Source: a virus. From it: a stretch of DNA of 64,000 nucleotides. Shown here one piece after another: positions 25,172 to 60,004 of the stretch. Where the stretch lies: positions 180,406-244,405 of the IMG/VR virus record IMGVR_UViG_3300044712_002679. The stretch is one strand, 5' to 3'. A program made the position numbers and the translations under genes. The notes beneath the pieces are model-generated. The model did not search any database. It was not told the origin of the DNA and saw nothing but the letters and a program-made list of their open reading frames with translations. Each line of letters begins with the position of its first letter. Position 1 is the stretch's first letter.

Positions 25172-25231
25172 CAAATGTCCATAGTGGTATTTTTTCGATA
25201 TTTTTTATTTATATATAAATAAAAAAACACT

Positions 25232-26449: not shown

Positions 26450-26453
26450 ATTT

Positions 26454-26822: not shown

Positions 26823-26834
26823 TGAATTAAAAAA

Positions 26835-27410
26835 CTAAATCGTTTTCATTTTCATATATTGCCTAACATATTCAACACTTTTATTTAAAAATGGTGTCAA
26901 ATCAACAATATGATGTTCTGTATTACTATACATTTCCGATTCTGAAAATTCTGCAACTATATTGTTAGCAGAATAAAATATAATACTAGGTTCAATATCT
27001 TTTAAATTTGGTCTTAATTGTGTGAGTATTTTTGCTTTTGTTACCAGTTCAGAAAATACAGAAGATAATACATCACTATTAATTTGGTCAGAATTAGAAA
27101 AACTGGTAGTTACATTTTCATTTTTAGTTGATCTATTTTTTACATTTTCATGTATATATTCTATAACATACCAAAGTGATTTACCATAACTTGGTGAATT
27201 CATTCTGAACATCTTAGTTGTATTTTTTTCATTGATATCATTGATTGGTAAATCAATCCACAATCTAAAAGATTCTTCGTGTGTATCGTTTTCGATGATA
27301 ACTATATGACCCCTGAATAATACTTCCGAAAATGTTTCACTATCGTTGATAAACCGACTAGCAACATAATCTCTTAGTTCAATCCAATCATTCGAATTAA
27401 TTTCTTTCAT
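26835..27410 (-). CDS. Hypothetical protein
   Basis: 191-aa ORF. Confidence 0.5.
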   Translation of the reverse strand: MKEINSNDWIELRDYVASRFINDSETFSEVLFRGHIVIIENDTHEESFRLWIDLPINDINEKNTTKMFRMNSPSYGKSLWYVIEYIHENVKNRSTKNENVTTSFSNSDQINSDVLSSVFSELVTKAKILTQLRPNLKDIEPSIIFYSANNIVAEFSESEMYSNTEHHIVDLTPFLNKSVEYVRQYMKMKTI

Positions 27411-27411
27411 A

Positions 27412-27452
27412 ATATTTTGTAATGATTAACGACAAAGATACAAAATTTTTTG
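27412..27452 (-). promoter_or_regulatory. Conserved promoter box (minus strand AAATTTTGTATCTTTGTCGTTAATCATTAC) directly upstream of the 27410 start
   Basis: Same family. Confidence 0.45.
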
Positions 27453-27478
27453 GATAAAAAAAATAATATATAAACAAT

Positions 27479-28084
27479 ATGAAAACAAAATTTGCAGAAT
27501 TTATAATTGAATCAAAAACGTATAATTTATATAAAGGGGTCACTAGATTGGACGAAATATTAAAAAGTGGTAAACTTAAATATGATAATAATTGGGAAAC
27601 AACTATAAGACAAAATATGGGTATAATGGGTATTGGAATATCAGCTACTCGTGTTTTTTCAACAGCATTAAAATATGGTGAAGCAATTATAGAATTTGAT
27701 ATCGAAAAATTGAGTGCCAAATATAGAATTATACCATTTTCGGAAAATCCAGATTATTTTATTTGGTATAAAAAACATTTTTCACCACCAGACAGTTATA
27801 ATTATGTAAAAACTGGAATTAGTGATAATCAATATAATGATATTTTTTGGGATTATAAAACAAATAAATATGATCCGGATTTTAATATTGCAGAAGAAAT
27901 TATTTTAACAAAAGAAATACCTATAAAATATTTCAAAAAGGTGTATCTCAACACAGATAATATACTATTACTTAAATTATTAAAATCTAAAAATATTCCA
28001 TATGAAATTGTTGATAATGAACATTTATCTGAAATAAGACATAAAAATAAGAAGAAAAATAAAAAAAATTTATTAGATTTTTGA
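27479..28084 (+). CDS. Hypothetical protein
   Basis: 201-aa ORF. Confidence 0.5.
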   Translation: MKTKFAEFIIESKTYNLYKGVTRLDEILKSGKLKYDNNWETTIRQNMGIMGIGISATRVFSTALKYGEAIIEFDIEKLSAKYRIIPFSENPDYFIWYKKHFSPPDSYNYVKTGISDNQYNDIFWDYKTNKYDPDFNIAEEIILTKEIPIKYFKKVYLNTDNILLLKLLKSKNIPYEIVDNEHLSEIRHKNKKKNKKNLLDF

Positions 28085-28270
28085 TATTTTTTGAATTTTG
28101 TTATCATCAAATCTAATTTCTAAATTTTTTGAAAAAATAGAATCAACTTTATTATCATACATTACAACATAATCATTATCTGATGGTAACCAACCATTCA
28201 ATTCCTTATTTAGTCTACAAACCTTTTTTAGTTTTAGTTGTAATATATCATTTAATTCGCTAAATTTCAT
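28073..28270 (-). CDS. Small hypothetical protein
   Basis: 65-aa ORF. Confidence 0.3.
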   Translation of the reverse strand: MKFSELNDILQLKLKKVCRLNKELNGWLPSDNDYVVMYDNKVDSIFSKNLEIRFDDNKIQKISKI

Positions 28271-28283
28271 TATTTTAAATATT

Positions 28284-28308
28284 AAAAAAGGGGATTAAAT
28301 CCCCTTTG
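28284..28308. terminator. Rho-independent terminator-like hairpin overlapping the stop codon of 28295-28843
   Basis: aaaaaaggggattaaatcccctttg. Confidence 0.5.
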
Positions 28309-28843
28309 CCATTTTATTTTTGATTTCATTTATTTTCAATTGGGCATCTTCTTTATTTTCAAAATAATTTCCTGTTGCTTTACGATAATGATAAGCAAAT
28401 TCATTTATGTGTGTTTCGGTTGTTACCATATGTTGAATGATGCCCTTTGAACTGATAAAGAAGTATATTTTACCATCATAAATATCTTTATCGGTTACTG
28501 TATAACTTACTTTATTGATTTCAATTGTATATTTTGCTCTTGTTTCGGTAACTGATTGTGCAGTTAAAACTGTTGCAGGAACTTTTACTGACAATCCACG
28601 ATGTTTTACTGACAATCCACGATGAGATTTTGCAAATTTTTCAGTAATATAAACCACATCCCCTGGTTTGAAATATGTTTCATATTCAACTTTGAAGAAA
28701 TCTGGTTCTTTTTCAGGATTATAAATACAAACTTGACCACCATCAAATACCCATTGTCCATTAATGAATTTAACACCGGTTCCAATTTTAATTCCACCAG
28801 GAAGAATTTTTGTAGTTACATAATAAGTTGCTTTCATATTCAT
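28295..28843 (-). CDS. Hypothetical protein with an in-frame 21-nt tandem duplication (HRGLSVK x2)
   Basis: 182 aa. DNA repeat at 28591-28632. Confidence 0.5.
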   Translation of the reverse strand: MNMKATYYVTTKILPGGIKIGTGVKFINGQWVFDGGQVCIYNPEKEPDFFKVEYETYFKPGDVVYITEKFAKSHRGLSVKHRGLSVKVPATVLTAQSVTETRAKYTIEINKVSYTVTDKDIYDGKIYFFISSKGIIQHMVTTETHINEFAYHYRKATGNYFENKEDAQLKINEIKNKMAKGI

Positions 28844-28882
28844 TTGTTGTTTTAAATTCGATACAAAGATACGAATTATTTT
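28844..28882 (-). promoter_or_regulatory. Conserved promoter box (minus strand AATTCGTATCTTTGTATCGAATTTAAAACAACAA) upstream of the 28843 start
   Basis: Same family. Confidence 0.45.
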
Positions 28883-28967
28883 TTAAATGAACAAACTTTA
28901 TTTGTGATATTCTTCTTTATATTTCATATTGGTTTCCAATCGGGTCTAAAACATGAAATTAGTTTTT

Positions 28968-29004
28968 AAAAAAAGTGGGTCTAATAATTAGACCCACTTT
29001 TTTT
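28968..29004. terminator. Rho-independent terminator-like hairpin
   Basis: aaaaaaagtgggtctaataattagacccacttttttt. Confidence 0.6.
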
Positions 29005-29211
29005 CACTTTATAATATTGTTTTTTCATATTAATTAATGCATTTAATATTTTTCCAACAACTTCAACCACTTCGTTATCATCAGTGACTTCAACCACTTC
29101 GTTATCATCAGTGACTTTCAAATCACCCAATTCTAACTCTAACGCATTAATCATATCTTCTAAAGATATATATGGTTTATTATTACTACCAGTTATTGTT
29201 TCAATTAACAT
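28981..29211 (-). CDS. Small protein with a TDDNEVVEV tandem repeat
   Basis: 76 aa. The start overlaps the terminator hairpin. Confidence 0.3.
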   Translation of the reverse strand: MLIETITGSNNKPYISLEDMINALELELGDLKVTDDNEVVEVTDDNEVVEVVGKILNALINMKKQYYKVKKSGSNY

Positions 29212-29329
29212 ACTTTTAATTTTTATTGTTTATATTTAAGCAATATACTAATTATTTTTTATTTAAGCAATATACTAATTATTTTTTTATGATTAAATAA
29301 TTAATTTCAAATATGATATAAAATTACAT

Positions 29330-29779
29330 TTAATCATTTTTATTCCTTATTTCTTTTAGTTCATACAATTTTAACATTCGTATTAATTGAAGGGAATTTT
29401 TATATTTTGCGTTACTTTTTGGTATATTTTGATTTATATACAAAGTAGAATCTGAAAAATATTGAATAGAATCACAAACAATTTTTATTTTTTTTCCACA
29501 CAGTTTTGGTTGTTCACCAAATTTGCCAAAAAAATTATCAATTGGTGTAGAAAATTTACAATTCTTGTATAACATAATATTGTTTGATTTGTGTTTCATT
29601 TGCCAAACAATATCTAATCTATATTTATTTTTTTCACAATCTTCGATTTTTTCAAGAATCTGATTAAGAATAATATCATCTGTAATAACTAACTCAAAGC
29701 TTTTATCGGCTCGATTAATCATTTTTACGTTATTTTTATCTTTCTTATAAAATATTAAGAATTTTTTCATATTTTGCAC
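29330..29779 (-). CDS. Hypothetical protein
   Basis: 149-aa ORF. Confidence 0.45.
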   Translation of the reverse strand: MQNMKKFLIFYKKDKNNVKMINRADKSFELVITDDIILNQILEKIEDCEKNKYRLDIVWQMKHKSNNIMLYKNCKFSTPIDNFFGKFGEQPKLCGKKIKIVCDSIQYFSDSTLYINQNIPKSNAKYKNSLQLIRMLKLYELKEIRNKND

Positions 29780-29822
29780 AATAAAATAAAACTATTTTGC
29801 ACAATAAAACTATTTTGCACAT
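29762..29822. promoter_or_regulatory. Three direct repeats (TTTTGCACAATAAAA core, about 19-bp period) in the divergent intergenic region. Operator-like
   Basis: gcacaataaaataaaactattttgcacaataaaactattttgcaca. Confidence 0.45.
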
Positions 29823-29883
29823 TCAACAAAAGTAAAAAATAAATTTCAAACAAAAAAATAATTGTAAAAAATATATATAGATT

Positions 29884-30630
29884 ATGATTACTAATTTTAA
29901 AAATTTTAAGAATAAAAAAGAATATATTTTATTAGTCGGACCACCTGGTAGTGGAAAATCGACATATATATCTAAATTACAAAGGTTTGGAAAAAAATAT
30001 GACATTATAAATCGTGATGATATTGTTATTGATATTGCTGAAAAAAATGGACTTACATATAAAGAAATGTTTAGTAGACCAAATAATATTTTTTTAAAAA
30101 ATGGTAAACATTTTATTCCAAATTCTTCTGATTTTTATGTTGAAAATGGTAAGAAATATTTAAAAAACTTTGAATATTTGGGTGATATAATTGAAGTTAC
30201 TGATGGTGAATATAAAAGTAGAATATCACCTGAAATATTTACAAAATTATCAGAATTAAATAATGTAGTTGAAGATACGCTTAATAAAAATATAGAACAT
30301 GCAATAAGGAAAAAACACAATATTATTATTGATATGACTAATAATAATAGGTATTATAGACAATTTTTCATTAATAAATTAAAAACACATAAACAATATT
30401 ATAAAATTATTGCTGTGATATTTAATGATGGTGGTAAAGGAATGGAAGATGTCTTAATAAATGTTAACAAAAGAAGAGATTTAGAATTAGCAAAAAGTGG
30501 AAGAAATAAAGCAATACCTGAAGATATTATTAGAAAATTTATTAGCAGTTATGAACCACCAACAAAATCAGAAGGAATTGACAAAATTATACATATTGAT
30601 ACTAAGAAAAAATTGGAAAAAATAATCTAA
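29884..30630 (+). CDS. Polynucleotide 5'-kinase (T4 Pnk kinase-domain-like, P-loop)
   Basis: Walker A LVGPPGSGKST, DMTNNNRYYRQ and RNKAIPEDIIRKF parallel T4 Pnk (GCPGSGKST, SDTNLNPERR, GTKAVPIDVLRSM). No HAD phosphatase domain. Confidence 0.6.
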   Translation: MITNFKNFKNKKEYILLVGPPGSGKSTYISKLQRFGKKYDIINRDDIVIDIAEKNGLTYKEMFSRPNNIFLKNGKHFIPNSSDFYVENGKKYLKNFEYLGDIIEVTDGEYKSRISPEIFTKLSELNNVVEDTLNKNIEHAIRKKHNIIIDMTNNNRYYRQFFINKLKTHKQYYKIIAVIFNDGGKGMEDVLINVNKRRDLELAKSGRNKAIPEDIIRKFISSYEPPTKSEGIDKIIHIDTKKKLEKII

Positions 30631-30674
30631 ACAATATTCGATTCTTAATCTATAATAAGAAAAAAATATGATAA

Positions 30675-31862
30675 ATGGTTTCAAAAACTGCTGAAGATTT
30701 TATTTTACAATTTGTAAGTAGAGATTTTCAATATTTAACACAACAATCAAAAATTTCATATAAACGAATCAACTTAAAATGTTCTTATTTGATCAACATT
30801 ATACACGAATTACTGATCAAATATTATTTTAGTAACAATATTGATACTAAATTTAATTTATCTTCAATTATCCTTAAAAAGAAATATGGTGAATTTTATA
30901 ATTATTATATAGAATATCTATGTGATAATGGTTTTATGAGCTTGGTATCGAATTATTATGTTGGTAAAAAAACAAAATCATATAAATTAGACACAAAATA
31001 TGTCTATGATACAATACGATATAAAAATACAGATAAATTCATTTTAAAAAAATCAAAAAATAGATATGAAACTACGATTTCTGAAATGAATCAAAGTTCA
31101 ATTTTGCCTGGTGTTCGAACAAAATTAATTCAATCATTGGATAGCATTAAAATTGATTATGATGGTGCTAATAAATTTCTTAATGAATTGATGGATAATA
31201 ATATTATAGATGATTCAAAATATAAACGAAACCAAATATCAATAGAAAATATAAGGGATGGTAACATATATTTTAACTTTGATGATTATGGTAGATTTCA
31301 TACAAATTTTACAATTTTAAGAAAAGAAATCCGTAATCAATTTTTATCAATAAACAATGAAATGTTAGCAGAAGTTGACATTAAGAATTCTCAACCATTG
31401 TTTTTTGGTGTTTTGCTAAAAAATGCATTACCACATATAAATGGGGACACTGAACGATATTTTGATTTAATAGTATCTGGTTTATTATATGAAGATATTG
31501 TGGAAAAATCAACAATTTCAAGTAGGAAGGATGCAAAAATGCTAATGTATAAAATATTATTTGGTGATAACATTAATGATAATAAGAAATTAAATAAAGT
31601 TTTCAAAAAGTTATATCCTTCTGTACACGAATATATTTTAGAATTTAAGGAAGAAAAAAAGAATTATAAAGAATTAGCATACAAATTACAGAAAATGGAA
31701 AGTAATTTCTTGTTTAATACTGTAATAAAAGAAATTTATCAAACTTATCCTGAAATTGTATTGTTTACTGTTCATGATTCGATAATGTTTCCAAAATCAT
31801 ATCAAGAAAGAGTTGAAGCGATATTTTATAAGCATTTTAAAAAACTAATCAGTGTGTTTTAG
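30675..31862 (+). CDS. Hypothetical protein
   Basis: 395-aa ORF. No ligase KxDG motif found. Confidence 0.5.
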   Translation: MVSKTAEDFILQFVSRDFQYLTQQSKISYKRINLKCSYLINIIHELLIKYYFSNNIDTKFNLSSIILKKKYGEFYNYYIEYLCDNGFMSLVSNYYVGKKTKSYKLDTKYVYDTIRYKNTDKFILKKSKNRYETTISEMNQSSILPGVRTKLIQSLDSIKIDYDGANKFLNELMDNNIIDDSKYKRNQISIENIRDGNIYFNFDDYGRFHTNFTILRKEIRNQFLSINNEMLAEVDIKNSQPLFFGVLLKNALPHINGDTERYFDLIVSGLLYEDIVEKSTISSRKDAKMLMYKILFGDNINDNKKLNKVFKKLYPSVHEYILEFKEEKKNYKELAYKLQKMESNFLFNTVIKEIYQTYPEIVLFTVHDSIMFPKSYQERVEAIFYKHFKKLISVF

Positions 31863-31890
31863 ATTACCATTTATCATTAATTTTCGGAAA

Positions 31891-32241
31891 TTATTTATAT
31901 ATTTTCCAAATCATTATGTAAGGCATATCTTTTTCGGATTCACTTTTTGTTTTTAATGATTCTAAAGCAAGTACAGGACTTTCAGTTCCAGAAGCAAACT
32001 TTCCTTTCCCTTGAAATAGTGGCATCATAGCAGCTTCATAATACTTCAAACAAGAAGGATGTATTTGTGCAATTTTTGATGCTTTCGTATAGGTTAATTT
32101 TTCAATTTCCCCTTTGTAATAAGGTTCACCTTCAATTTGATAGTAAGCCTGTTCTAATTCTCCTTCTGATTCAAAGAAAGCAATTGCATAATGCCAAATT
32201 GTTTTAAACTTTACCACAATTTTAATATTTTGAAAGTTCAT
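31891..32241 (-). CDS. Hypothetical protein (start uncertain)
   Basis: ORF 31891-32331 trimmed to an internal Met to limit overlap with 32222-32464. Confidence 0.35.
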   Translation of the reverse strand: MNFQNIKIVVKFKTIWHYAIAFFESEGELEQAYYQIEGEPYYKGEIEKLTYTKASKIAQIHPSCLKYYEAAMMPLFQGKGKFASGTESPVLALESLKTKSESEKDMPYIMIWKIYK

Positions 32242-32464
32242 CAAAATCAAATATTCTACCATTCCAACTGTGCAAATCATCAATTCGATTGTCAGTTTTA
32301 TCAGCAACAAAATAGATTGTAGGGGTTTCACCTATATCATTTTTTAATTCTTCAATCGTATTGTATTGCCGTGAATGTGAACCCAATATTCTGTCTAACA
32401 GTATAACCATTGGGGTTTCACCAATTCCAAGATAATATGTTACCGAAAATTTAATTGTTTCCAT
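32222..32464 (-). CDS. Hypothetical protein
   Basis: 80-aa ORF. Confidence 0.35.
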   Translation of the reverse strand: METIKFSVTYYLGIGETPMVILLDRILGSHSRQYNTIEELKNDIGETPTIYFVADKTDNRIDDLHSWNGRIFDFDELSKY

Positions 32465-32776
32465 TTATTTATATTTAATGGTGTTAAGTGAAGATTCAGA
32501 CCATGCGATAAAATAATTACTTTTTTCGATGTTTTTGACAACATTCATAAAGTTATCATCATCCGGAATAGTCACAAAATCTTCTTTAATTGAATTATTA
32601 TCAGGTGAATATTTTTTTAATTCTTCTGAATATGTAATTTTTTGAAGATTGTATGTGTCAAGGATATCATCAATTGACATATTTGGATTTTCACTTTGTA
32701 TTTTTTCGTATGATGGTTCAATTGGTTTTGAATTACATCTTGTGAAATAGAGTACTATATCAAAATTTCCGTTCAT
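32465..32776 (-). CDS. Hypothetical protein
   Basis: 103-aa ORF. Confidence 0.45.
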   Translation of the reverse strand: MNGNFDIVLYFTRCNSKPIEPSYEKIQSENPNMSIDDILDTYNLQKITYSEELKKYSPDNNSIKEDFVTIPDDDNFMNVVKNIEKSNYFIAWSESSLNTIKYK

Positions 32777-32777
32777 A

Positions 32778-32818
32778 ATTGTTGTTTAAATGATAGGTCA
32801 AAGATACAAAAAAATAAT
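32778..32818 (-). promoter_or_regulatory. Conserved promoter box (minus strand TTTTTGTATCTTTGACCTATCATTTAAACAACAAT) upstream of the 32776 start
   Basis: Same family. Confidence 0.45.
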
Positions 32819-32994
32819 GATTAATCCAAATTAAATGATAGCTAATTCAACATCAGATTCAGTTAATTTAGTTGAATATTCATCGTGATTTAAATTGATA
32901 TTCATCCCATTTTCGATTTTATCAATCATTCGTTCACCTTTAGAAGTCACATCTAATCTTTTTACAACTTCGTTGGTTTTATCTTTTATGATTT

Positions 32995-33378
32995 CTAAAT
33001 ATTTGTACATATTTTTTCGTTTTTCTTTAATGTCTTATTAATTTTGATATTTGCAATTTGCATTTCTTCAACAATTTTTCTCAACTTATGATATAATTCT
33101 TTAGCATCATAATTTTGATCAAATTCAATTGCCTTTAAAATTAAATTTAAATCGCTGAATGATAAATCCCAATTGTATGCATAGTCAGGTGAATCACTTG
33201 TTTTTTCCCAATCCCGTCTATTTTTCATTCCATACAAAAATGCACCATATCCTGGAATTGTTGTAGATTTAACTTTTGAATCATAGTGGTGTGCAGCATC
33301 ATTGTAGATGATATTGAATTCTTCTTCTGTAAATTCAACATTTAATTTTAATTCGGCACAAAAACAATATTTATTCAT
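32995..33378 (-). CDS. Hypothetical protein
   Basis: 127-aa ORF. Confidence 0.45.
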   Translation of the reverse strand: MNKYCFCAELKLNVEFTEEEFNIIYNDAAHHYDSKVKSTTIPGYGAFLYGMKNRRDWEKTSDSPDYAYNWDLSFSDLNLILKAIEFDQNYDAKELYHKLRKIVEEMQIANIKINKTLKKNEKICTNI

Positions 33379-33406
33379 AGTTTTAATTTTTAATTAAATT
33401 TTTTAA

Positions 33407-33664
33407 TTAATTCATAAACATAGGTTTATACCAAGCCATAGGGATATTTTCTTCAATCCACTTTAACGCTATTGGCTTAATATGCATAAAAAGTAAGGAA
33501 TAAATTACATTAGGATATTCTGATGCTGGTCTATCAAAAGTAAAATTGTAGTCATCTAATATGTTATTTAATTCAGGAATAGCAATATCTATTACTATTT
33601 TTGCTTGTGATTCAAACATTCCGTTATTAACAAGCATAGTTTCTAATTTTTCCCTAGAAGTCAT
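33407..33664 (-). CDS. Hypothetical protein
   Basis: 85-aa ORF. Confidence 0.4.
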   Translation of the reverse strand: MTSREKLETMLVNNGMFESQAKIVIDIAIPELNNILDDYNFTFDRPASEYPNVIYSLLFMHIKPIALKWIEENIPMAWYKPMFMN

Positions 33665-33665
33665 A

Positions 33666-33718
33666 ATTGTGTTGTTTTAATGTTGTTTTAAATTATAGAA
33701 CAAAGATATGAATAATTA
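33666..33718 (-). promoter_or_regulatory. Conserved promoter box (minus strand ATTATTCATATCTTTGTTCTATAATTTAAAACAACA) upstream of the 33664 start
   Basis: Same family. Confidence 0.45.
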
Positions 33719-34111
33719 ACGATTAAACCAAATAATTTGATCAAAATCTTTGCGAACTTTACCACATTTTATGTCACTCGGAAATATATCAATGTCACTC
33801 ATTTTGCCATCTTTAATATAATTTCCGGAACCATCATAATCAATAAATCCACCACATTTGCAATTAGATACAAATTCTTTAAGTGTCATAATATCACCAA
33901 AATCTGGTAATTCTTGATATGTTGGGGTTTTTACCAAGCGATACAATCTTGATATGGTGCAAGATTTTTCTGATGCTTTTCGCATATATTCTTGAAATTC
34001 TTGATATGATAAATTAAGTGGTATATTTTTATACCATTCATCATATTCTTTATCGGCTAATTCAAGTGCGATTTTTAATTCTGCTTCAGTTTTTTTCGTA
34101 ATTTTAGCCAT
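33716..34111 (-). CDS. Hypothetical protein
   Basis: 131-aa ORF. Confidence 0.45.
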   Translation of the reverse strand: MAKITKKTEAELKIALELADKEYDEWYKNIPLNLSYQEFQEYMRKASEKSCTISRLYRLVKTPTYQELPDFGDIMTLKEFVSNCKCGGFIDYDGSGNYIKDGKMSDIDIFPSDIKCGKVRKDFDQIIWFNR

Positions 34112-34150
34112 ATTGTTGTTTTAAATGATGGTACAAAGATACGAATAATT
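34112..34150 (-). promoter_or_regulatory. Conserved promoter box (minus strand AATTATTCGTATCTTTGTACCATCATTTAAAACAACAAT then ATG)
   Basis: Same family. Directly abuts the ATG at 34111. Confidence 0.45.
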
Positions 34151-34171
34151 ATTTAATTTACAAAGATTTAT

Positions 34172-37850: not shown

Positions 37851-40800
37851 ATGTTATGGACAATATTACTGATTAAAAAAAATAATAATGGTTGGTATAT
37901 TAACTACATTGAAAACAAGTTAATTAATCAAATAAACAAATTGAAATTAGAAAAGTTTGTTGAAGTTCTTGTATTTGAACCCAATTTACAAATTTTTGCT
38001 AATTATATAAGTGTTGTAGATAAAGTTGAAATATCTGATAATTTTGTGGAAATAATTTACAATAAATTAAAAAATTGTAAAAAAGATTGCATTAGATTAA
38101 CCGCCATAAGTTATATGGATAATGTTCCAATAGAAATAGTCTTACCAATATCAAAATTAAATCCAATAAAAATAGATAATATATTCGAATTACAAGACAT
38201 TAATTATTATATTAATAGTGAAAATCTTTCAAGTATAGTTAAAACGATAGACACAATAAACATTCCAGTTATTTATTATGAAGATTTGAATAAAATACCA
38301 TTCAGTATCATTATATCAGCATATAAATCACAAAAATATATTGAAGAATGTTTAGATTCAATTGAAAATCAAACATACTTTAAAGATAATGATAATTATG
38401 AAATATTAGTTGGTGTTGATGGTTGCCAGGACACCTTAGATAAATTACAAGAAATCAAGGATAAATACAGAAATCTTCATATTTATATGATGACTGAAAA
38501 TAAAGGCACATATATCTGTTGTAATACATTGATTGATTTAGTGAAAAATGAAAATGTTATTAGGTTTGATTCTGATGATGTTATGACACCTAATTTTATT
38601 AGAGAAGTTGTTAGAAATATTAATGATAACGATATTATGATATTGGGTTCATTGGATTTGACAAATGGTATTGTTGGCACAAAATTTTTATTAACGGAAG
38701 GAATCATTTATTTTAGAAAAAGTGTAATGGATAATATTGCTGGGGGATATCAACCTTGGATATGTTCGGCTGACACAGAATTAATCAAAAGATTAATGAA
38801 TAAAGTAAAAATTATGCAATTAAAAAAAGCATTATTTCACAGAAGATTGCATAGTGAAAGTTTAACACAGAAAGATGGTACACGATATAGATCAGAACTC
38901 AGGGAAGGTTATAAAAAATTGATTAAACCATATTATAAAGATAATGAAATTAAAATTGAACGGGTTGTTAATATAATATTAGAAGAAGAAAAATTAGAAG
39001 AAAAATTAGAAGAAAAATTAGAAGAAAAATTAGAAGAAAAATTAGATATAATTTTAGAAAATAACATTCCAAAGATTCCAAAAAAGATGTTTTTTTATTG
39101 GAGTGGTGGCAAATTATCATGGATGAGATATATGACAATATATTCATTTAGAAAATTTAATCCTGATTGGGAAATAACATTATGTTTATCTAATAACAAA
39201 AGTACTTATAATAATTGGAAACATAATAAACAAGATTTTATTGAATATAATGGTGATGATTATTTTAAAAAATTAAAAAAATTAAATATCAATATTAAAG
39301 ATGTCAAATTTTCAGATGAATTATCAAATAATTCATGTTTTAAAAAATTATCACCTATTCACGAAAGTGATTTATATAGATATTATGAACTGTATAAATC
39401 TGGTGGATTTTATTGTGATAGTGATGTTATATTTTTTAGGTCTATTGATAAATTTTACAATGAAATTATTTCTGGTCAATATGATACTGTTGTTCACGAA
39501 TATTATAATTCTGAATCAGACAAATATCAAACAATAGGGTTTTTGGGTTCTTCTATAAATAACCAATATTATAAAGATTTATTTAATTATGCGGTCCATC
39601 ATATTTTAAAAAACAACATATCCAATGATGATTATCAATCATTGGGTGTCAATTTAATTTATAATTATTTTAATAAATTACCAAAATTATTACCAAATAT
39701 TAAAGAAAAATATAAAGATTTAAAATTTATGAATATACCAAACAATTTAATATACAAATATGATTGGAAGTGTATAGAAAATTGTTTTGAAATTGGTAAA
39801 ACAATAAACGATTTTGATATATATTCTATTGGTTATCATTGGTATGGTGGACATAAAATATCACAAAAATATAATAATATTTTAAATGAAAAAAATTATA
39901 AAAAATATAATACGACAATAAGTAATATTGCTAAATTCATTTATGATAAAAAAGAAAAAATATTACCAACAATTTCTATTATTATGACTTATTATAATAG
40001 AAAAACATTATTATACAATACGTTAAAAAGTATAAATACATCATCTGTAAAAAATATAGAAGTTATTGTTGTTGATGATGGTAGTTCGGAAGATCAAAGA
40101 ATAGAAGAATATAAAAATGAATTTTCATTTTTAAAAATAATTAGATTAAATCCTGAAAATAAATGGTATCTTAATCCATGTATACCATTTAATATTGGAA
40201 TAAGATATGCAAGTTCGGATAAAATAATATTACAGAATTCGGAATGTGTATATGTTGATGATATATTAAAATATGTTAATGATAATTTAGATGATTTTAA
40301 ATATATATCATTTTCAACATATTCTATTGATGAAGAATCCAATAATTTAATATCTAAAAATTTAAAAAATGACACATTAAAAGAATTTCTTAAAAAATTT
40401 CCACAACAAACAATAATGGGCAATAGACCAATTGGGTGGTATAATCATTCACAATATAGATCGACATATTATCATTTTTGTGCTGCAATAACTAAGAAAA
40501 ATTTAGATTTAATTGGTGGTTTTGATGAAAGATATGCTAATGGCATTGGATTTGATGATGATGATTTTATAGAAAAAATAAAAAATTTGAATTTAAATAT
40601 GTTGATAGTGGATAATTATTCTGTTATCCATCAGTGGCATGATAGTTATTATTATAATATTCCAAATTTTATGAATTATCATAATAAAAATAAAAATATA
40701 TTTAATTCAATATATAAAAATAAGAAAATATCAGTAGCAATATGCTATTATAATCGTAAGCAACATTTAATTAATACATTAATGAGTATGACTAAAAGTT

Positions 40801-49508: not shown

Positions 49509-49658
49509 TGAAGTATATATAAAAAAATCAAAGTCTTTTTTATAAACTTTATTGATATATTTTTATATGTTATGATAACATATTTGATTTTAGGAAAAAT
49601 AAATTTTTGTTTGAATGAAATAGATTATTACGATTTAAGAAAAATAAAACTTTGATAT

Positions 49659-55788: not shown

Positions 55789-56058
55789 TTATAATCTTAT
55801 TTTGTTATCCCTTGCAAATTCTTCAATATATTTTTTTAAACTAAAAAGTACTTCTTTTTTTGTTAATTCACTACTATTTAATTCTATTTTTACAGATGAA
55901 TAAATTTCACGAAGAAATTCAATCAATTCTGTTTGTTTATTATATTTAAGATCAAATGTTAAATCAATTATTTTTGATTTAAGTTCTTCATTTTCATCTT
56001 CTAATTTTTTTATTTTTTCTAATATTTCTTCTTCTTCGGTCATCGTTCTTTCAAGCAA
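55789..56058 (-). CDS. Small coiled-coil protein
   Basis: 89 aa, Glu/Lys-rich heptads. Confidence 0.35.
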   Translation of the reverse strand: MLERTMTEEEEILEKIKKLEDENEELKSKIIDLTFDLKYNKQTELIEFLREIYSSVKIELNSSELTKKEVLFSLKKYIEEFARDNKIRL

Positions 56059-56237
56059 GTTATTAAAAATTCTAATTCATTAATGTCTTTTTCCATATTT
56101 TTGCGATGTTGTGGTTCTTTAGAATTATCACCACCTAAAACATTTATTAAGTCTTCATATTGATAACTTACATTTATAGTATATTTGCTTTCTGCAAGTC
56201 TTTTTTTGAGCATTCTTAATACTGTTATTCTTTTCAT
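56040..56237 (-). CDS. Small hypothetical protein
   Basis: 65 aa. Confidence 0.3.
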   Translation of the reverse strand: MKRITVLRMLKKRLAESKYTINVSYQYEDLINVLGGDNSKEPQHRKNMEKDINELEFLITCLKER

Positions 56238-56324
56238 ATATTATTTATAACAAATGTATTTTTTTTATTGGATAATACAAAAAAATTACTTTAAAATTTT
56301 AATATATACAGAAAAAATAAAATT

Positions 56325-56534
56325 ATGATAGAAAAACTTAAAGCAATTTGGGAAAAACTTAAAGTCTGGTTTAAGAAAAATTGGATGATAGTTGTAAATT
56401 ATTTAGTAATATTCTTGGCATATTCAATATGTTATGGAAAAGATGGTGTAGTTGGTGCTGATACTTTATTAGGACTTTGGTTATTTGCATCTGCTGCTTA
56501 TGGTGCATATAAATGGTTTATTAAGAAAAAATAA
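56325..56534 (+). CDS. Small two-TM membrane protein (holin-like architecture)
   Basis: 69 aa with hydrophobic segments MIVVNYLVIFLAYSI and LLGLWLFASAAYGAY and a basic C-terminus. Confidence 0.35.
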   Translation: MIEKLKAIWEKLKVWFKKNWMIVVNYLVIFLAYSICYGKDGVVGADTLLGLWLFASAAYGAYKWFIKKK

Positions 56535-56565
56535 AAAAAGCCACTTTTTCAAGTGGCTTTTTTGT
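56534..56565. terminator. Rho-independent terminator hairpin GCCACTTTTTCAAGTGGC, copy 1
   Basis: aaaaaaagccactttttcaagtggcttttttg. Confidence 0.6.
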
Positions 56566-58474
56566 TTATCATTTCAAATTTATATTGTCCACAATCATAT
56601 ATTCTTGGTATATTTAATTTTGACATAATATTTTTTTCGGTATCATTGCATTTTAATTTCTTTTTAGTGAAATGTTGTTTATTTATTCTTTTATTATTTA
56701 CAATATATTTGTAATTTATTTTACTTTCATAAAGTAAATTGAATCCTAGCATATAATATAATTTACCATCACTCCAGGCTTTGTCTGAATATGAAATAAT
56801 TCGATTGGATTCATAGTTTTTTATAAAATAAGACAACAATTTGGAAGCAGCACCAATAACATTAGTATCTAATTTATTACAAAATCTACTTAAATTCCAT
56901 TCATTTTGTTGTAATTTTTTCCTACCTTCCATTTTATCAAATGTCATTATTGAAACTAATTCGTTATTATAAAATAATCCTATTTTTTTAACTGAATGTA
57001 TAAATCCTTGGATATGATTATTATTAAGAAATTGTCTAATAATATTTATATCATCAATTTCTTTAATTTGACATTTTCTCGCAAATATTTTATTTTCTGT
57101 TAAATTAAGCCAATTTTTTATTTGACTTTTCAATATATCTGACCTAAAATCCCAATCATCTTCCCAAATATAAATAATTCGAATTCCTTTTTCTTTAAAA
57201 TAATTTAGTTTTTTTAAATGCTTATCTTTTTCAATATATTTATCACTATGCCAATATAACCCATTAAATTCAAACCCAATTTTGATGTCAGGTAAAAATA
57301 CATCTATTTCATAATGATCTCTATAATTTTCAATAATTGTTCCATCATATATATTTTGAATAAAATTTTTCAATTCTTTTTCTTTTATTGACACATTAGC
57401 ATCAATTGGATAACATACAGTACAAATTTTGCAATTTCTATATTTTCTTTGAAAATAATTATTTGTAGCAATTTCATAAATATGATCCTTTCCACAGTCA
57501 CATTTAAATTGTGACATTAAACCACCAACATATTGAATATAATTAGAATCTTTTGCTATTATGTAATTATATTTTCTAAAATCTTCTAGAAACATAATAT
57601 TATCAACATCATATCTTTCTTTAAATGTGTTTTTTATTTTATTTTTTATTTCATTATTTTGTGTTGGTCTTTCGAATCCATATTTTATTAAATTAGTATC
57701 TTTAATTTTTGTTTGTATTCCAAATAATGATGCAATGTTAGTTGTACCATATTTTTCTAATAATGTAATATTGACTTTATCTGAAAGTTCTTTTGAACTA
57801 TAAGTAAATCCACTATATTTCATATCAAAAGTTTGTTTCTTTTTTTCTTTCACATCAATATCTTGGGATATATTTTTTAGATTGTATATTTTTAGTGTTG
57901 TATTTTCACGAATATTATTTATTTTTTGTATTTCTTCTGTTGTTTTATTATTCCAAGTGTTTTTAATTTTTAATGATATTTCTTCTTTATTTAAATCATA
58001 TTTAATTTTTTTCGAATCTTTAACATTTTGTATTTGCGAAACATGTTCTACACCATATTTTATTAAATTGGTTTTTTTTATTTTTTCTTTAACATCAGAT
58101 AATTCAAATGTTGATTCTACACCATATTTTAAAAAATTGTTTTCTTTTAACTTTAATGCACCACATTTATATGAACAAGAGTATTTATTAGTTTTTTTAA
58201 TGTTTTCATTATATGTTTTCATTGATACAATTTTTTCGTTACCACAATAATCACATATTACAGGTATTTCTATATGTGAACCCTTTGGTATGTCTGAAAT
58301 TTTCACTATTATACTATCATTATCAGTATTATATCCTAATTTTTCATAGTATTTTTTATTAGAATGATTTATATTTACAATTACATTTTCACAATTTATC
58401 ATAGTTTTATTTTTATTTTTATTGGCAAACAATGTAATATGTTTGATTAAGTATATATAAATACAAAATATCAA
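56549..58474 (-). CDS. Large nuclease-like protein: KYGx repeat modules, a Vsr/DUF559-like PD-(D/E)xK domain, and a C-terminal domain
   Basis: IGFEFNGLYWHSDKYIEKDKHLKKLNYFKEKGIRIIYIWEDDW is homologous to the C-terminus of ORF 205-1230. There are about 5 repeats of LIKYGVE...K.KIKKT. Confidence 0.6.
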   Translation of the reverse strand: MIFCIYIYLIKHITLFANKNKNKTMINCENVIVNINHSNKKYYEKLGYNTDNDSIIVKISDIPKGSHIEIPVICDYCGNEKIVSMKTYNENIKKTNKYSCSYKCGALKLKENNFLKYGVESTFELSDVKEKIKKTNLIKYGVEHVSQIQNVKDSKKIKYDLNKEEISLKIKNTWNNKTTEEIQKINNIRENTTLKIYNLKNISQDIDVKEKKKQTFDMKYSGFTYSSKELSDKVNITLLEKYGTTNIASLFGIQTKIKDTNLIKYGFERPTQNNEIKNKIKNTFKERYDVDNIMFLEDFRKYNYIIAKDSNYIQYVGGLMSQFKCDCGKDHIYEIATNNYFQRKYRNCKICTVCYPIDANVSIKEKELKNFIQNIYDGTIIENYRDHYEIDVFLPDIKIGFEFNGLYWHSDKYIEKDKHLKKLNYFKEKGIRIIYIWEDDWDFRSDILKSQIKNWLNLTENKIFARKCQIKEIDDINIIRQFLNNNHIQGFIHSVKKIGLFYNNELVSIMTFDKMEGRKKLQQNEWNLSRFCNKLDTNVIGAASKLLSYFIKNYESNRIISYSDKAWSDGKLYYMLGFNLLYESKINYKYIVNNKRINKQHFTKKKLKCNDTEKNIMSKLNIPRIYDCGQYKFEMINKKAT

Positions 58475-58521
58475 AAAAAAGCCACTTTTTCAAGTGGCTT
58501 TTTCAAGTGGCTTTTCTTTTT
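58473..58521. terminator. Terminator hairpin GCCACTTTTTCAAGTGGC, copy 2, plus a partial third copy
   Basis: aaaaaaaagccactttttcaagtggctttttcaagtggcttttc. Confidence 0.6.
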
Positions 58522-58534
58522 AAACAAGATAATT

Positions 58535-59467
58535 TTAATTACCATCAATTTCGAAGAAATTACCAGCATCATCATCTTCACCAAAAACTGCACTACTATC
58601 TTCTTTAGTTGATATATTATCAAAGCTTGAACCTGATGCCTGTTTTTCTGTAAGATTAATTTCATTTCCACTAAGAATTTCGAGTATCTGAGAAGCTTTA
58701 TATGCTTCTTCGGCTGTCCATTGTTTAGCTTGATGATCTTCCAAATCAACTGTACGATCAAGTAAGAATTGTCTAACTTTTTCTTTAACTTTAGGATTAG
58801 TAATTTTGTTTTTACCTTTTTCATCTACTGTAACCGGAGCTTTTTGTCCTTGGATTGAAATAGGTGATACAGCTAAAAATGTTGATGAATCATAATTAGG
58901 AAATTCACCTAATTGTTTGATTACAAGACGGAAATCTTTTCCGTTAGCTAAGTCGAATACGTTACAAGGTTCACCTGCTGTACCTTCTTTTTGGTCTTTG
59001 ATTTTTTCCTTGATTTTATAACCATAAGGATAAATCATAATTTTACCTTCAAGATCACGGTTTTGCTCATCTTCGATCACTAAGATGTAAGAATAATACT
59101 TTGTATTTCTACTAATCAATTCTGCTTTTTCAACATCTGAAGCATTTTTTGAATTTTTTAATTTCCAATACATTGTACAGAAATCACACTTGTCAGTGAA
59201 ATTCTTCAAACAATCATAATAACCTGAAAGTTCTGGGTGATTTTTAAAATCAACGTAGTGTTGATGTTTTTCAATAGCTGCTTGCAAAACTTTACCATCT
59301 TTCGATAGGTTAGGGAGAAATCTAATTGTTGCAGTATAACCTTTTTTCTTATCGGTTATTTTTGGGCGATAGATACCATCTAACGCACCAGCTTTTTTGT
59401 CTAGAAAATCTAGCGTTTCATTACCTTCGTCAACATCAAAAATGTCAACATTTTCAAATTCTTTCAT
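58535..59467 (-). CDS. T4 gp32-like single-stranded DNA-binding protein
   Basis: YTATIRFLP matches gp32 VIRFLP. H...C-x9-C-x2-C (HYVDFKNHPELSGYYDCLKNFTDKCDFC) matches the gp32 Zn site. Acidic C-tail EDDDAGNFFEIDGN. Confidence 0.7.
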   Translation of the reverse strand: MKEFENVDIFDVDEGNETLDFLDKKAGALDGIYRPKITDKKKGYTATIRFLPNLSKDGKVLQAAIEKHQHYVDFKNHPELSGYYDCLKNFTDKCDFCTMYWKLKNSKNASDVEKAELISRNTKYYSYILVIEDEQNRDLEGKIMIYPYGYKIKEKIKDQKEGTAGEPCNVFDLANGKDFRLVIKQLGEFPNYDSSTFLAVSPISIQGQKAPVTVDEKGKNKITNPKVKEKVRQFLLDRTVDLEDHQAKQWTAEEAYKASQILEILSGNEINLTEKQASGSSFDNISTKEDSSAVFGEDDDAGNFFEIDGN

Positions 59468-59578
59468 TGCCTTTAAATTATTTTTATGAAGCCTTTTAAG
59501 CCTTAAAATATTGCAAAACCTATAAAGCCTTGTAACATTTTATGATATTTATATTATGATATATAAAAAAAGTTTAAA

Positions 59579-60004
59579 TTATTTATCATAATTGTTTTTA
59601 AATATTAATTTTATCCAAGCATAAGGTTTTCTTGATTTTAAATAATTATTATTTAAATCATTATTATATGCTTCTCTTTCAAATGATATATTTCTATATG
59701 CATCTTTAAAAAAAAACAATTTAATTAACCATTCAATAAAATACCAAATATAAAATGGTAGTATAAACAATTCTAATTGTTGTTGCCAATGAATTTTTTC
59801 ATGATTTATAACCGATATAGATTTGATGTTTTTGACATAAATACCAAATGGGCATAGTGTTATACCTGTAACATATTTACCACAAACAAATTTTAAAAAA
59901 TTAGTAAAGATTTTAATTTTTGGTTCAAACATCCTTTTTTTTCTTTTTTGGTTTAAACGATGAAGATTTTTTATAAAATAAATCACGATCAACACCAACT
60001 TCAT
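59579..60004 (-). CDS. Small hydrophobic protein with an HExxH motif (possible Zn-metallopeptidase)
   Basis: INHEKIHWQQQLE. Confidence 0.35.
   Translation of the reverse strand: MKLVLIVIYFIKNLHRLNQKRKKRMFEPKIKIFTNFLKFVCGKYVTGITLCPFGIYVKNIKSISVINHEKIHWQQQLELFILPFYIWYFIEWLIKLFFFKDAYRNISFEREAYNNDLNNNYLKSRKPYAWIKLIFKNNYDK

What the first reader, a model, noticed from the sequence alone, without database searches (positions are those of the whole stretch)
56534..58521. Nuclease-like 641-aa gene bracketed by identical GCCACTTTTTCAAGTGGC terminator hairpins
The same 18-bp palindrome plus T-run occurs immediately downstream (56541-56558) and upstream (58481-58498, with a partial third copy at 58503-58512) of the minus-strand gene 56549-58474. 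This gene carries a Vsr/DUF559-like nuclease domain homologous to the intein-associated endonuclease at 205-1230. It also has KYG repeats. Duplicated flanking hairpins suggest the gene arrived as a mobile cassette, by homing that duplicated the target terminator, between the small membrane-protein gene and the gp32-like gene.
Basis: seen in the sequence. Interest (0 to 1): 0.55.

Follow-up and report, generated by a model that had tools for sequence, protein, structure and literature searches.

The report
Homing-endonuclease gene flanked by duplicated terminator
A selfish nuclease gene of a known phage family sits just after the single-strand-DNA-binding protein gene of a huge phage, flanked by two copies of the terminator hairpin that relatives lacking the gene carry only once; a clear but largely ordinary case of a mobile gene cassette.

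Summary
An identical 30-nt element (A-run, GCCACTTTTTCAAGTGGC, T-run) occurs twice in 64 kb, at 56533-56562 and 58474-58503, and brackets one minus-strand gene.

The gene is 617 aa, starting at the ATG at 58402 rather than the TTG at 58474. It belongs to the large "Hef-like homing endonuclease" family (PHROG 3339/559, Pfam DUF7487). A high-confidence model shows these domains:
- a zinc-ribbon domain;
- KYG helical repeats;
- an EDxHD/Vsr-like nuclease (I-Bth0305I fold);
- a C-terminal Mom-like GNAT domain. This nuclease-Mom fusion is already described for jumbo phages.

Evidence from relatives:
- All 16 examined genomes carrying an ortholog have it directly downstream of gp32.
- Sister lineages lack it and show gp32, one hairpin, then the convergent membrane-protein gene.
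- Terminator copies flank family members in three unrelated hairpin families.
- Where the empty site already has two different hairpins, the gene sits between them with no duplication.

The best reading is a free-standing homing-endonuclease cassette whose insertion into a convergent junction was followed by duplication of the resident bidirectional terminator, which insulates three transcription units. How the duplication arose is not resolved, and canonical homing does not produce one.

One lead: a conserved leader block resembles an internal gp32 segment and may mark the target.

This is a new member of a known kind, of moderate interest.

The parts
56533..56563 (.). T2: downstream copy of the bidirectional intrinsic terminator. 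It consists of an A-run, the stem-loop at 56540-56557, and a T-run. It ends both the nuclease gene (minus strand) and the membrane-protein gene (plus strand). The last four codons (KKAT) and the TGA stop of the nuclease gene lie inside it at 56549-56563, with the stop in the loop.
56549..58402 (-). Hef-like homing-endonuclease gene, 617 aa, a nuclease-Mom fusion
   Evidence: phrog_3339 at 2e-100, phrog_559 at 4.5e-71 and Pfam DUF7487 at 1e-16. tblastn matches genes annotated Hef or homing endonuclease in phages. A 100% identical 617-aa protein and more than 1596 homologs exist.
58172..58402 (-). N-terminal beta/zinc-ribbon domain, with invariant C50, C53, C76 and C80 (617-aa numbering)
57566..58171 (-). 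KYG helical repeat array, about eight units of roughly 23 aa; presumed DNA-binding module
   Evidence: D16; DUF7487
57398..57541 (-). Second cysteine cluster (C301, C327, C330 and neighbours), a small beta domain
57107..57391 (-). EDxHD / Vsr-like nuclease domain. Conserved residues: E341, D367, E378/N380, H385, D415 (617-aa numbering).
   Evidence: Foldseek match to 3r3p (I-Bth0305I): E 4.8e-5, target TM 0.79, 25% identity. Conserved (invariant, or at least 90% for E341) residues. The domain range is inferred from the motif and the secondary structure.
56567..57097 (-). Mom-like GNAT domain
   Evidence: Foldseek match to 8bv8 (phage Mu Mom), E 2e-7, plus many GNATs. hhalign pairs Mom R111/S124/D149/Y159 with conserved R506/S520/D540/Y549.
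58403..58472 (-). Promoter-like motif TTTATATATACT (58450-58461) and a conserved leader block TAATCAAACATATTACA (58433-58449), between T1 and the start codon
58473..58521 (.). T1: upstream copy of the terminator. It consists of an A-run, the stem-loop at 58481-58498, a 13-nt tandem duplication at 58499-58511, and a T-rich run. It terminates gp32 transcripts.
58535..59467 (-). gp32-like single-strand-DNA-binding protein gene, the constant upstream neighbour
   Evidence: Pfam gp32 at 3.6e-22. It lies upstream of the nuclease gene in all 16 ortholog-bearing genomes compared.
58937..58975 (-). gp32 segment encoding GEPCNVFDLANGK. In several relatives it is the best match in the whole of gp32 to the nuclease gene's leader, so it is a candidate recognition site. 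The similarity is weak in this window itself.
56325..56534 (+). Convergent 69-aa gene for a small hydrophobic protein, the downstream neighbour that shares T2

Best explanation
The gene is a free-standing homing-endonuclease gene of the Hef-like (EDxHD, Vsr-fold) family. It forms its own transcription unit in the convergent spacer between gp32 and a small membrane-protein gene of a huge phage (source contig about 500 kb).

Shown:
- Gene-less relatives have one bidirectional terminator (T) in this spacer.
- Gene-bearing relatives have T1, a promoter-like motif, a conserved leader, the gene, then T2.
- T1 and T2 are copies of the lineage's own T.

Inferred:
- gp32 transcripts stop at T1.
- The nuclease gene is transcribed from its own TTTATATATAC-type phage promoter and stops at T2.
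- T2 also stops the convergent membrane-protein gene.
- The second copy therefore restores termination on both sides of the insert and is kept by selection.

Inferred origin: the right-hand junction lies in an A-tract shared by the gene's A-rich 3' end and the A-run of T. This fits an illegitimate, microhomology-based crossover or strand switch between a gene-bearing and a gene-less genome during recombination-dependent replication or break repair. It does not fit a duplication made by homing itself.

Inferred spread: in mixed infection the nuclease cuts gene-less relatives in or near gp32, and repair copies the cassette. The 30-nt direct repeats also allow precise loss, which regenerates an empty site with one hairpin.

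The C-terminal Mom-like domain may modify DNA to protect the carrier genome. This is inferred from conserved catalytic residues only.
For: Family and fold:
- PHROG and Pfam hits.
- 433 phage records match, many annotated Hef or homing endonuclease.
- AF2 model with pLDDT 91.
- Foldseek to I-Bth0305I and to Mu Mom.
- The literature places Hef-type enzymes in the EDxHD family (PMC3239194) and describes Mom-REase fusions in jumbo phages (PMC7824862).

Presence and absence:
- Empty sites with a single hairpin occur in L008, L043 and L020-22.
- Two of these empty-site lineages, L008 and L043, are sister to gene-bearing lineages in the gp32 tree.
- No leader remnants are found in empty sites.

Position: the gene lies directly after gp32 in all 16 ortholog-bearing genomes, whose gp32 is 44-90% identical to the window's.

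Movement: window versus L069 gives gp32 70% and nuclease 81%. Window versus L041 gives gp32 82% and nuclease 72%.

Terminator duplication in three unrelated hairpin families:
- GCCACTT type: window, L001/2, L041, L073, L076/77.
- GTTGTCAAA type: L075, 33 of 35 identical.
- GCTCTTG type: L109, identical 29-nt hairpin on both sides, in a different gene context.

Natural control: gene-less L045/L003 carry two different back-to-back hairpins, and in L074 the gene sits exactly between them with no duplication.

A-tract junction: compare L069 ...ATTATAAAAAATTGA with L002 ...ATAATTAAAAAAGCCACTTGA.

Terminator strength on both strands.

Precedent: T4 SegG, a free-standing endonuclease gene beside gene 32 that cleaves gene 32 (PMC2988022).
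Against: - No cleavage, homing or termination was measured.
- The nuclease and gp32 trees are largely congruent (r = 0.83). Much of the pattern could therefore be vertical descent plus loss.
- No co-conversion gradient is visible in gp32.
- No sequence 'immunity' differences separate gene-bearing from gene-less gp32 in the candidate target segment.
- Three lineages with a convergent downstream gene (L072, L080, L081) have no second hairpin at all. Insulation is therefore not obligatory.
- In L073 the two loops are complementary (TTT versus AAA) rather than identical. A simple direct duplication does not predict this.
- The similarity of T1 and T2 within each genome could also reflect gene conversion rather than independent duplications.
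Confidence: 0.6

Rival explanations
1. The gene is an old resident that is lost, not gained. It has sat after gp32 since the common ancestor of these phages. Empty sites arise by recombination between the T1 and T2 direct repeats, and there is little or no present-day homing.
For: The nuclease and gp32 trees are mostly congruent (r = 0.83). Empty sites are clean, with exactly one hairpin and no remnants. This is what T1 x T2 deletion would give.
Against: L069/L070 conflict between the two trees. The family is scattered over many unrelated phages and contexts. Other endonuclease genes occupy the same flank in other lineages. This reading does not explain how T2 arose.
Confidence: 0.3
2. The protein is a single-chain restriction-modification-like weapon rather than a homing element. 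The Mom-like domain marks the phage's own DNA and the nuclease attacks unmodified host or rival DNA. Its position after gp32 is inherited, not targeted.
For: Mom fold with conserved counterparts of Mom R111, S124, D149 and Y159. This reading was proposed for the same fusion in jumbo phages (PMC7824862).
Against: The strict association of this subfamily with gp32, while other subfamilies sit elsewhere. Presence/absence differs between sister lineages. Mom R151 has no conserved counterpart. The two readings are not mutually exclusive.
Confidence: 0.2
3. The cassette moves in a PeSL-like or Campbell-type way. Recombination between T1 and T2 releases a circle of hairpin, promoter and gene. The circle re-inserts by homologous recombination at the single hairpin of a gene-less relative, which automatically gives identical flanking copies.
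For: Flanking direct repeats made of a terminator followed by a promoter-like motif. T4-type phages form such mini-circles between promoter/stem-loop cassettes (PMC2839356, PMC4122927). In L002 a second insertion next to T2 is also bordered by a duplicated promoter segment.
Against: Only two copies of the repeat occur in 64 kb, so it is not a dispersed motif family. The repeat covers the hairpin only, not the promoter. Thirty nucleotides is short for homologous recombination. The model does not explain how the first T2 arose in each of three hairpin families.
Confidence: 0.15
4. The insertion mechanism itself duplicates about 30 bp of target. For example, staggered cuts on both sides of the extruded hairpin are followed by fill-in, as in a transposon target-site duplication.
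For: Recurrent duplication of whatever hairpin is locally present, in three unrelated sequence families.
Against: L074 compared with L045/L003 shows an insertion of the same gene with no duplication. Nine lineages lack T2. There is no transposase or integrase domain. The right junction varies: in some genomes the gene's own stop codon is retained (L041, L075), in others the reading frame is fused into the hairpin.
Confidence: 0.05

Closest known systems
Hef of phage U5 and 'Hef-like homing endonucleases' of T4-related, Campylobacter and jumbo phages (Sandegren et al. 2005, cited in PMC2988022)
   Same: Same protein family by PHROG and tblastn. Free-standing gene in an intergenic spacer next to a conserved DNA-metabolism gene. 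Patchy distribution among relatives.
   Different: Here the neighbour is gp32, not nrdA/nrdB. The gene is flanked by two copies of the resident terminator. No activity data exist for this member.
I-Bth0305I, prototype of the EDxHD (Vsr-like) homing endonucleases (PDB 3r3p; PMC3239194)
   Same: Nuclease domain fold (target TM 0.79, 25% identity) and conserved acidic/His residues.
   Different: I-Bth0305I is intron-encoded, 266 aa, with NUMOD-type DNA-binding motifs. This protein is free-standing, 617 aa, with zinc ribbons, KYG repeats and a Mom-like domain.
T4 SegG (PMC2988022)
   Same: A free-standing endonuclease gene adjacent to gene 32. SegG cleaves gene 32 of phages that lack it, and it is expressed from a phage middle or late promoter.
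   Different: SegG is a GIY-YIG enzyme, lies on the other side of gene 32 in T4, and is not flanked by duplicated terminators.
Mom-REase fusions of jumbo phages (Iyer et al. 2021, PMC7824862) and phage Mu Mom (PDB 8bv8; PMC13219725)
   Same: The same C-terminal GNAT/Mom fold fused to a restriction-endonuclease-fold nuclease. PA5oct members of this family are hits.
   Different: Mu Mom is a stand-alone enzyme shown to glycylate adenine using Gly-tRNA. No modification has been shown for the fusion proteins. Mom R151 is not conserved here.
PeSL promoter/stem-loop cassettes of T4-type phages (PMC2839356, PMC4122927)
   Same: A terminator stem-loop next to a promoter, bordering an optional gene and marking indel boundaries between close relatives.
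   Different: PeSLs are a dispersed multi-copy motif family. Here there are only two copies and only the hairpin is repeated.
I-TevI operator that mimics its homing site (PMC2988022)
   Same: A short sequence upstream of the endonuclease gene resembles a sequence in the neighbouring target gene. In relatives the match is 17-18 of 20, or 22 of 24.
   Different: Binding and repression are untested. The similarity is weak in this window (13 of 20). Orientation differs between lineages.

Membership tests
Hef-like / EDxHD (Vsr-fold) homing endonucleases | Sequence membership in the family | tested here: met
   phrog_3339 at 2.2e-100, phrog_559 at 4.5e-71, DUF7487 at 1.2e-16. tblastn matches annotated Hef genes.
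Hef-like / EDxHD (Vsr-fold) homing endonucleases | Vsr-like nuclease fold with conserved E, D, H, D residues | tested here: met
   Foldseek to 3r3p: E 4.8e-5, target TM 0.79. E341 (at least 90%), D367, H385 and D415 are invariant in 75 homologs. The residue-by-residue match to I-Bth0305I was not aligned explicitly.
Hef-like / EDxHD (Vsr-fold) homing endonucleases | Optional gene at a fixed site next to a conserved gene, with precise empty sites in relatives | tested here: met
Hef-like / EDxHD (Vsr-fold) homing endonucleases | Site-specific double-strand cleavage of the gene-less allele and unidirectional gene conversion | not testable with these tools
   Needs protein and a cross. Only indirect signs are available: the tree conflict for L069/70 and the leader/gp32 similarity.
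Mom-family GNAT DNA-modifying enzymes | GNAT/Mom fold | tested here: met
   8bv8 at E 2.1e-7, plus dozens of GNATs
Mom-family GNAT DNA-modifying enzymes | Essential Mom residues R111, S124, D149, R151 (PMC13219725) | tested here: inconclusive
   hhalign pairs R111/S124/D149/Y159 with R506/S520/D540/Y549, all invariant or at least 90% conserved. R151 has no conserved counterpart, and the alignment statistics are weak (E 0.13).
Mom-family GNAT DNA-modifying enzymes | Adenine hypermodification of DNA | not testable with these tools
   Needs nucleoside analysis or kinetic signals from long-read sequencing.
Bidirectional intrinsic (rho-independent) terminator | G+C-containing stem, short loop, U-run on both strands, placed at gene ends | tested here: met
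   Position relative to the gp32, nuclease and membrane-protein gene ends. In vivo termination was not tested.
PeSL mobile regulatory cassettes | Dispersed multi-copy conserved promoter + stem-loop motif | tested here: not met
   Only two copies within 2 mismatches in 64 kb. Other terminators are unrelated. The repeat excludes the promoter.
Transposon / insertion sequence with target-site duplication | Transposase or integrase, and obligatory duplication at every insertion | tested here: not met
   No such domain. L074 is inserted without duplication.

The most novel reading that the evidence does not exclude
The protein is a single-chain, self-protecting homing element.
- Its Mom-like domain acylates adenine in its own genome's target, a conserved segment of gp32 encoding CNVFDLA.
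- Its EDxHD nuclease cuts the unmarked gp32 of co-infecting relatives.
- The conserved copy of that segment in its leader serves as an operator.
- The duplicated terminators make the insertion precisely reversible, which drives a gain-loss cycle.

This would be a homing endonuclease that achieves immunity by DNA modification instead of target-site polymorphism.
Probability: 0.15. Interest if true: 0.7.

Novelty: new member of a known kind. Interest (0 to 1): 0.4.

Why it matters
The locus is a clean natural series of filled sites, empty sites and alternative fillings. It shows how a selfish nuclease gene settles into a tight convergent gene junction without disturbing its neighbours: the shared terminator ends up on both sides of the insert. 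This happened in at least three unrelated hairpin families. It did not happen where two terminators were already present.

The locus also offers a concrete, testable candidate for the target of a widespread but uncharacterised nuclease-Mom fusion family: gp32, around the CNVFDLA codons. More than 1500 relatives exist, many in huge phages.

Neither point changes current concepts of homing endonucleases.

Tried and rejected
- Single-sequence AlphaFold model: useless (pLDDT 31). It was replaced by a 75-sequence alignment model.
- Sequence searches of the PDB with the protein and with a 7-sequence profile: no meaningful hits.
- NCBIfam: no hit.
- Rfam on 56000-59600: only sub-threshold matches caused by the terminator shape.
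- Co-conversion test, identity along gp32 between the window and gene-bearing versus gene-less relatives: no gradient.
- Search for synonymous 'immunity' changes in the candidate gp32 segment: no split between gene-bearing and gene-less genomes, although the window itself has four C-ending or otherwise unusual codons there.
- Pattern search for an empty site of the L075-type hairpin in viral contigs: nothing.
- Look-up of the source contig of the identical protein P0001: not on record.
- Direct homology to the ORF at 205-1230: not significant by BLASTP, marginal by profile methods.
- The Campylobacter phage NCTC12673 'Repeat Unit' annotation next to Hef genes: these are the repeated 5' ends of tandem paralogs, not flanking terminators.
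- Transposon-like obligatory target duplication: rejected because of L074 versus L045/L003.
- PeSL membership: rejected because only two copies exist.
- Survey of 61 more distant family members: most have no hairpin on one or both sides. Of 7 with hairpins on both sides, only L109 has matching copies. Duplication is therefore recurrent but not a general property of the family.
Full report
**The observation**

The 18-nt sequence GCCACTTTTTCAAGTGGC occurs at 56540-56557 and 58481-58498 and nowhere else in the window, even with two mismatches allowed. Chance expects 0.02 matches.

Together with its A-run and T-run, the identical repeat is 30 nt long and the copies lie 1941 bp apart (family D19). 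Each copy scores as an intrinsic terminator on both strands. Each folds as RNA at -14 to -19 kcal/mol, far below shuffled controls.

The upstream copy is followed by a 13-nt tandem duplication (58499-58511).

My own hairpin census of the 64 kb found only two other strong A-run/stem/T-run hairpins, and their stems are unrelated. The hairpin is therefore not a generic genome-wide terminator.

**The gene**

The mechanical ORF is 56549-58474 with a TTG start. The real start is the ATG at 58402, giving 617 aa. Three points support this:
- A database protein of exactly 617 aa is 100% identical. It lies on a 501,337-bp contig, so the source is a huge phage.
- Every homolog aligns from that methionine.
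- The TTG-to-ATG stretch contains a promoter-like motif and abuts the upstream hairpin.

The last four codons (KKAT) and the TGA stop lie inside the downstream hairpin, with the stop codon in its loop.

**What the protein is**

It matches PHROG 3339 'homing endonuclease' (2e-100), PHROG 559 (4.5e-71) and Pfam DUF7487. tblastn finds relatives in 433 phage records. Many are annotated Hef or Hef-like homing endonuclease, including Campylobacter phages, RaK2-like Klebsiella phages, PA5oct, AR9, Lak phages and uncultured huge phages. The protein database holds more than 1596 relatives.

A structure model built on 75 homologs is confident (pLDDT 91). It shows, in order:
- an N-terminal beta/zinc-ribbon domain;
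- a run of about eight helical 'KYG' repeats;
- a second cysteine cluster;
- an alpha/beta nuclease domain;
- a C-terminal alpha/beta domain.

Foldseek matches the catalytic domain of I-Bth0305I, the prototype EDxHD (Vsr-like) homing endonuclease (E 4.8e-5, target TM 0.79, 25% identity). Its top hit is phage Mu Mom (E 2e-7), followed by many GNAT acetyltransferases.

The I-Bth0305I paper already assigns 'Hef type homing endonucleases' to this Vsr-like family (PMC3239194). A survey of jumbo phages already describes Mom domains fused to restriction-endonuclease-fold nucleases, with five copies in PA5oct (PMC7824862).

A profile alignment pairs the Mom residues R111, S124, D149 and Y159 with R506, S520, D540 and Y549. 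The first three are essential or important for activity according to PMC13219725. The four counterparts are invariant or at least 90% conserved among 75 homologs. R151 has no counterpart and the alignment statistics are weak. Activity of this domain is therefore plausible but not shown.

**The link to the ORF at 205-1230**

BLASTP gives nothing significant. A profile comparison aligns only the FEFNGLYWH/IELDGEYWH motif region (E 0.01, probability 4%). Both proteins hit PHROG 559, the ORF at only 7e-4. They probably share the nuclease fold, but the claim is weakly supported.

**Relatives: filled and empty sites**

Using gp32 and the nuclease as queries I collected loci from viral contigs, metagenomes and assemblies.

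Every ortholog examined lies directly downstream of gp32. This covers 16 genomes in 14 distinct lineages, with nuclease 54-89% identical and gp32 44-90% identical to the window's.

Gene-less relatives L008, L043 and L020-22 show gp32, one hairpin, then the convergent membrane-protein gene. An example from L008 is AAAAAAGCCACTTTTTAAGTGGCTTTTTTT.

In a gp32 tree, L008 is sister to the gene-bearing L044/L073 lineage and L043 is sister to the gene-bearing L041.

The conserved leader block of the cassette is absent from all empty sites, so they carry no remnants.

Other lineages (L006, L010, L012-14, L051, L053) carry a different, reverse-oriented endonuclease-like gene at the same gp32 flank. This flank is therefore a hot spot for such genes.

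**The two hairpins across lineages**

Where the downstream gene is the convergent membrane-protein gene, gene-bearing genomes have two copies:

| Genome | T1 (upstream) | T2 (downstream) |
|---|---|---|
| window, L001, L002 | GCCACTT-GAAA-AAGTGGC | the same (one mismatch in L001) |
| L076/77 | GTCACTT-GAAA-AAGTGAC | ACCACTT-GAAA-AAGTGGC |
| L041 | ACCACTT-CAAA-AAGTGGT | GCCACTT-CAA-AAGTGGC |
| L073 | GCCACTT-TTT-AAGTGGC | GCCACTT-AAA-AAGTGGC |

L075 has an unrelated hairpin, GTTGTCAAA...TTTGACAAC, and a different convergent neighbour. It again has two copies, 33 of 35 identical.

In a survey of 61 more distant family members, L109 lies in yet another context with no gp32 nearby. It is flanked by an identical 29-nt hairpin, AAAAAGCTCTTGTTATTCAAGAGCTTTTT, on each side. 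Six other loci have unrelated hairpins on the two sides.

By contrast, L032, L033, L069, L070, L079 and L082 have a co-directional downstream gene and only the upstream hairpin. L072, L080 and L081 have a convergent neighbour but no second hairpin.

The most telling case is L074. Its gene-less relatives L045/L003 have two different hairpins back to back. In L074 the gene sits exactly between them, with no duplication, and borrows its stop codon from the resident ATGTAA.

**What this means for mechanism**

- The second hairpin is a copy of the lineage's own terminator. It is not a sequence carried with the gene.
- Duplication arose, or was maintained in concert, in at least three unrelated hairpin families.
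- Duplication is not an automatic product of insertion, as L074 shows. A transposon-like target duplication is therefore unlikely, and 'homing duplicated the terminator' is not accurate.
- The right junction sits in an A-tract shared by the gene's A-rich 3' end and the A-run of the hairpin. Compare L069 ...ATTATAAAAAATTGA with L002 ...ATAATTAAAAAAGCCACTTGA. In L041 and L075 the gene keeps its own stop codon just before the A-run.

The simplest account is an illegitimate, microhomology-based exchange between a gene-bearing and a gene-less genome. Selection then retained the result because it restores a terminator for each of the three transcription units. This is inference.

Gene conversion between the copies, or a PeSL-like circle that inserts by hairpin homology (PMC2839356, PMC4122927), cannot be excluded. 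The PeSL label fails, however, because only two copies exist and only the hairpin is repeated.

The complementary loops in L073 remain unexplained.

**Is it mobile now?**

The nuclease and gp32 trees are largely congruent (r = 0.83). There is one clear conflict: L069/70 have a distant gp32 (70%) but a close nuclease (81%), whereas L041 has a closer gp32 (82%) and a more distant nuclease (72%).

Against the closest relative, nucleotide identity is 92-96% over the 3' two-thirds of the gene but 75-90% in the flanks.

Together with the interleaved empty sites, this fits occasional transfer plus loss. Loss through the 30-nt direct repeats would give exactly the empty sites seen. I found no co-conversion gradient in gp32.

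**Expression signals and a lead on the target**

Between T1 and the start codon lies TTTATATATACT. This motif also sits 5-25 nt upstream of other ORF starts in the window, including the ORF at 205.

It is followed by a block, (A/T)AATCAAA(C/T)AT(A/G)TTA(C/T)A. The block is conserved across lineages whose nuclease proteins are only 70% identical, and a recognisable form persists in L081 at 60%.

This block resembles the reverse complement of the gp32 codons for C-N-V-F-D-L-A:
- L081: 22 of 24, better than all 300 random controls.
- L072 and L073: 17 of 20, the top-ranked of about 1850 windows in their own gp32.
- L075: a different leader matches the same gp32 segment in the sense orientation, 17 of 20, the unique top.
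- This window: only 13 of 20.

By analogy with the I-TevI operator that mimics its homing site, and with T4 SegG, which lies beside gene 32 and cleaves it (PMC2988022), this segment is a candidate recognition site. It is a lead, found post hoc, not a result.

**Verdict**

The gene is a new member of the known Hef-like (EDxHD nuclease + Mom-like) family and forms an optional cassette at the gp32 3' flank.

The flanking hairpins are two copies of the resident bidirectional terminator. Their duplication is best explained by recombination plus selection for transcriptional insulation, not by homing itself.

Interest is moderate. The locus is a tidy comparative example and gives a testable target prediction, but nothing lies outside known kinds of system.

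Noticed in passing
window 205-1924: The 341-aa ORF at 205-1230 has a Vsr-like IELDGEYWH motif and a weak hit to phrog_559. It overlaps the start of the ORF at 1214-1924. That ORF begins with an intein C-terminal splicing motif (Pfam Intein_splicing, 2.8e-5) followed by the C-terminal part of an IMPDH/GMP-reductase-like enzyme (3.8e-22). This looks like a 'fractured gene': a free-standing endonuclease gene between split-intein halves.
   Followed up: partly
window 6205-12757 and 24944-25172: A large tRNA gene array: 22 predicted tRNAs with many duplicates (Met, Glu, Asp, Asn, Tyr), plus a cluster of three tRNA-Gln. This is typical of huge phages.
   Followed up: no
window 14535-34164 (e.g. 26799-26834, 33678-33718, 34111-34151): A dispersed 36-41-nt motif containing ACAAAGATAC occurs at eight or more places (repeat families D7, D13, D18). 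It may be a promoter class or a regulatory cassette. Unlike the hairpin studied here, it is multi-copy.
   Followed up: no
window 13291-13488 and 38984-39055: Perfect tandem repeats of 33 nt (five to six units) and of 12 nt (AGAAGAAAAATT, about six units).
   Followed up: no
L002 7439-9560: In the closest relative, a 569-aa leucine-rich-repeat-like gene lies on the opposite strand between the downstream hairpin and the membrane-protein gene. It comes with an internally deleted second copy of that gene and a duplicated promoter segment of about 65 nt. This is a second insertion bordered by duplicated regulatory DNA.
   Followed up: partly
L006 8951-9862, L010 8960-9793, L012 3005-3769 (also L013, L014, L051, L053): A different endonuclease-like gene of 254-303 aa starts MIITKTIK. 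Its N-terminus resembles the Hef N-terminal domain, and it hits PHROG endonuclease families. It occupies the same gp32 3' flank in reverse orientation, without terminator duplication.
   Followed up: partly
L035 4677-6228: A more distant family member also ends its reading frame (…KKKET*) inside a bidirectional terminator shared with a convergent gene, with the stop codon in the loop. Running into the neighbour's terminator is therefore recurrent in this family.
   Followed up: no
window 58946-58966: In the candidate target segment of gp32 the window uses AAC GTA TTC GAC, where most relatives use AAT GTT TTT GAT. That is four synonymous differences in a row, in a very A+T-rich genome. It could be a protective polymorphism or chance.
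   Followed up: partly
window 180-191, 9836-9847, 22068-22079, 49512-49523, 58450-58461: TTTATATATAC(T/A) lies 5-52 nt upstream of ORF start codons. It is probably a phage promoter class reminiscent of the T4 late promoter TATAAATA. Enrichment is borderline: 11 matches with up to one mismatch against 5.2 expected.
   Followed up: partly
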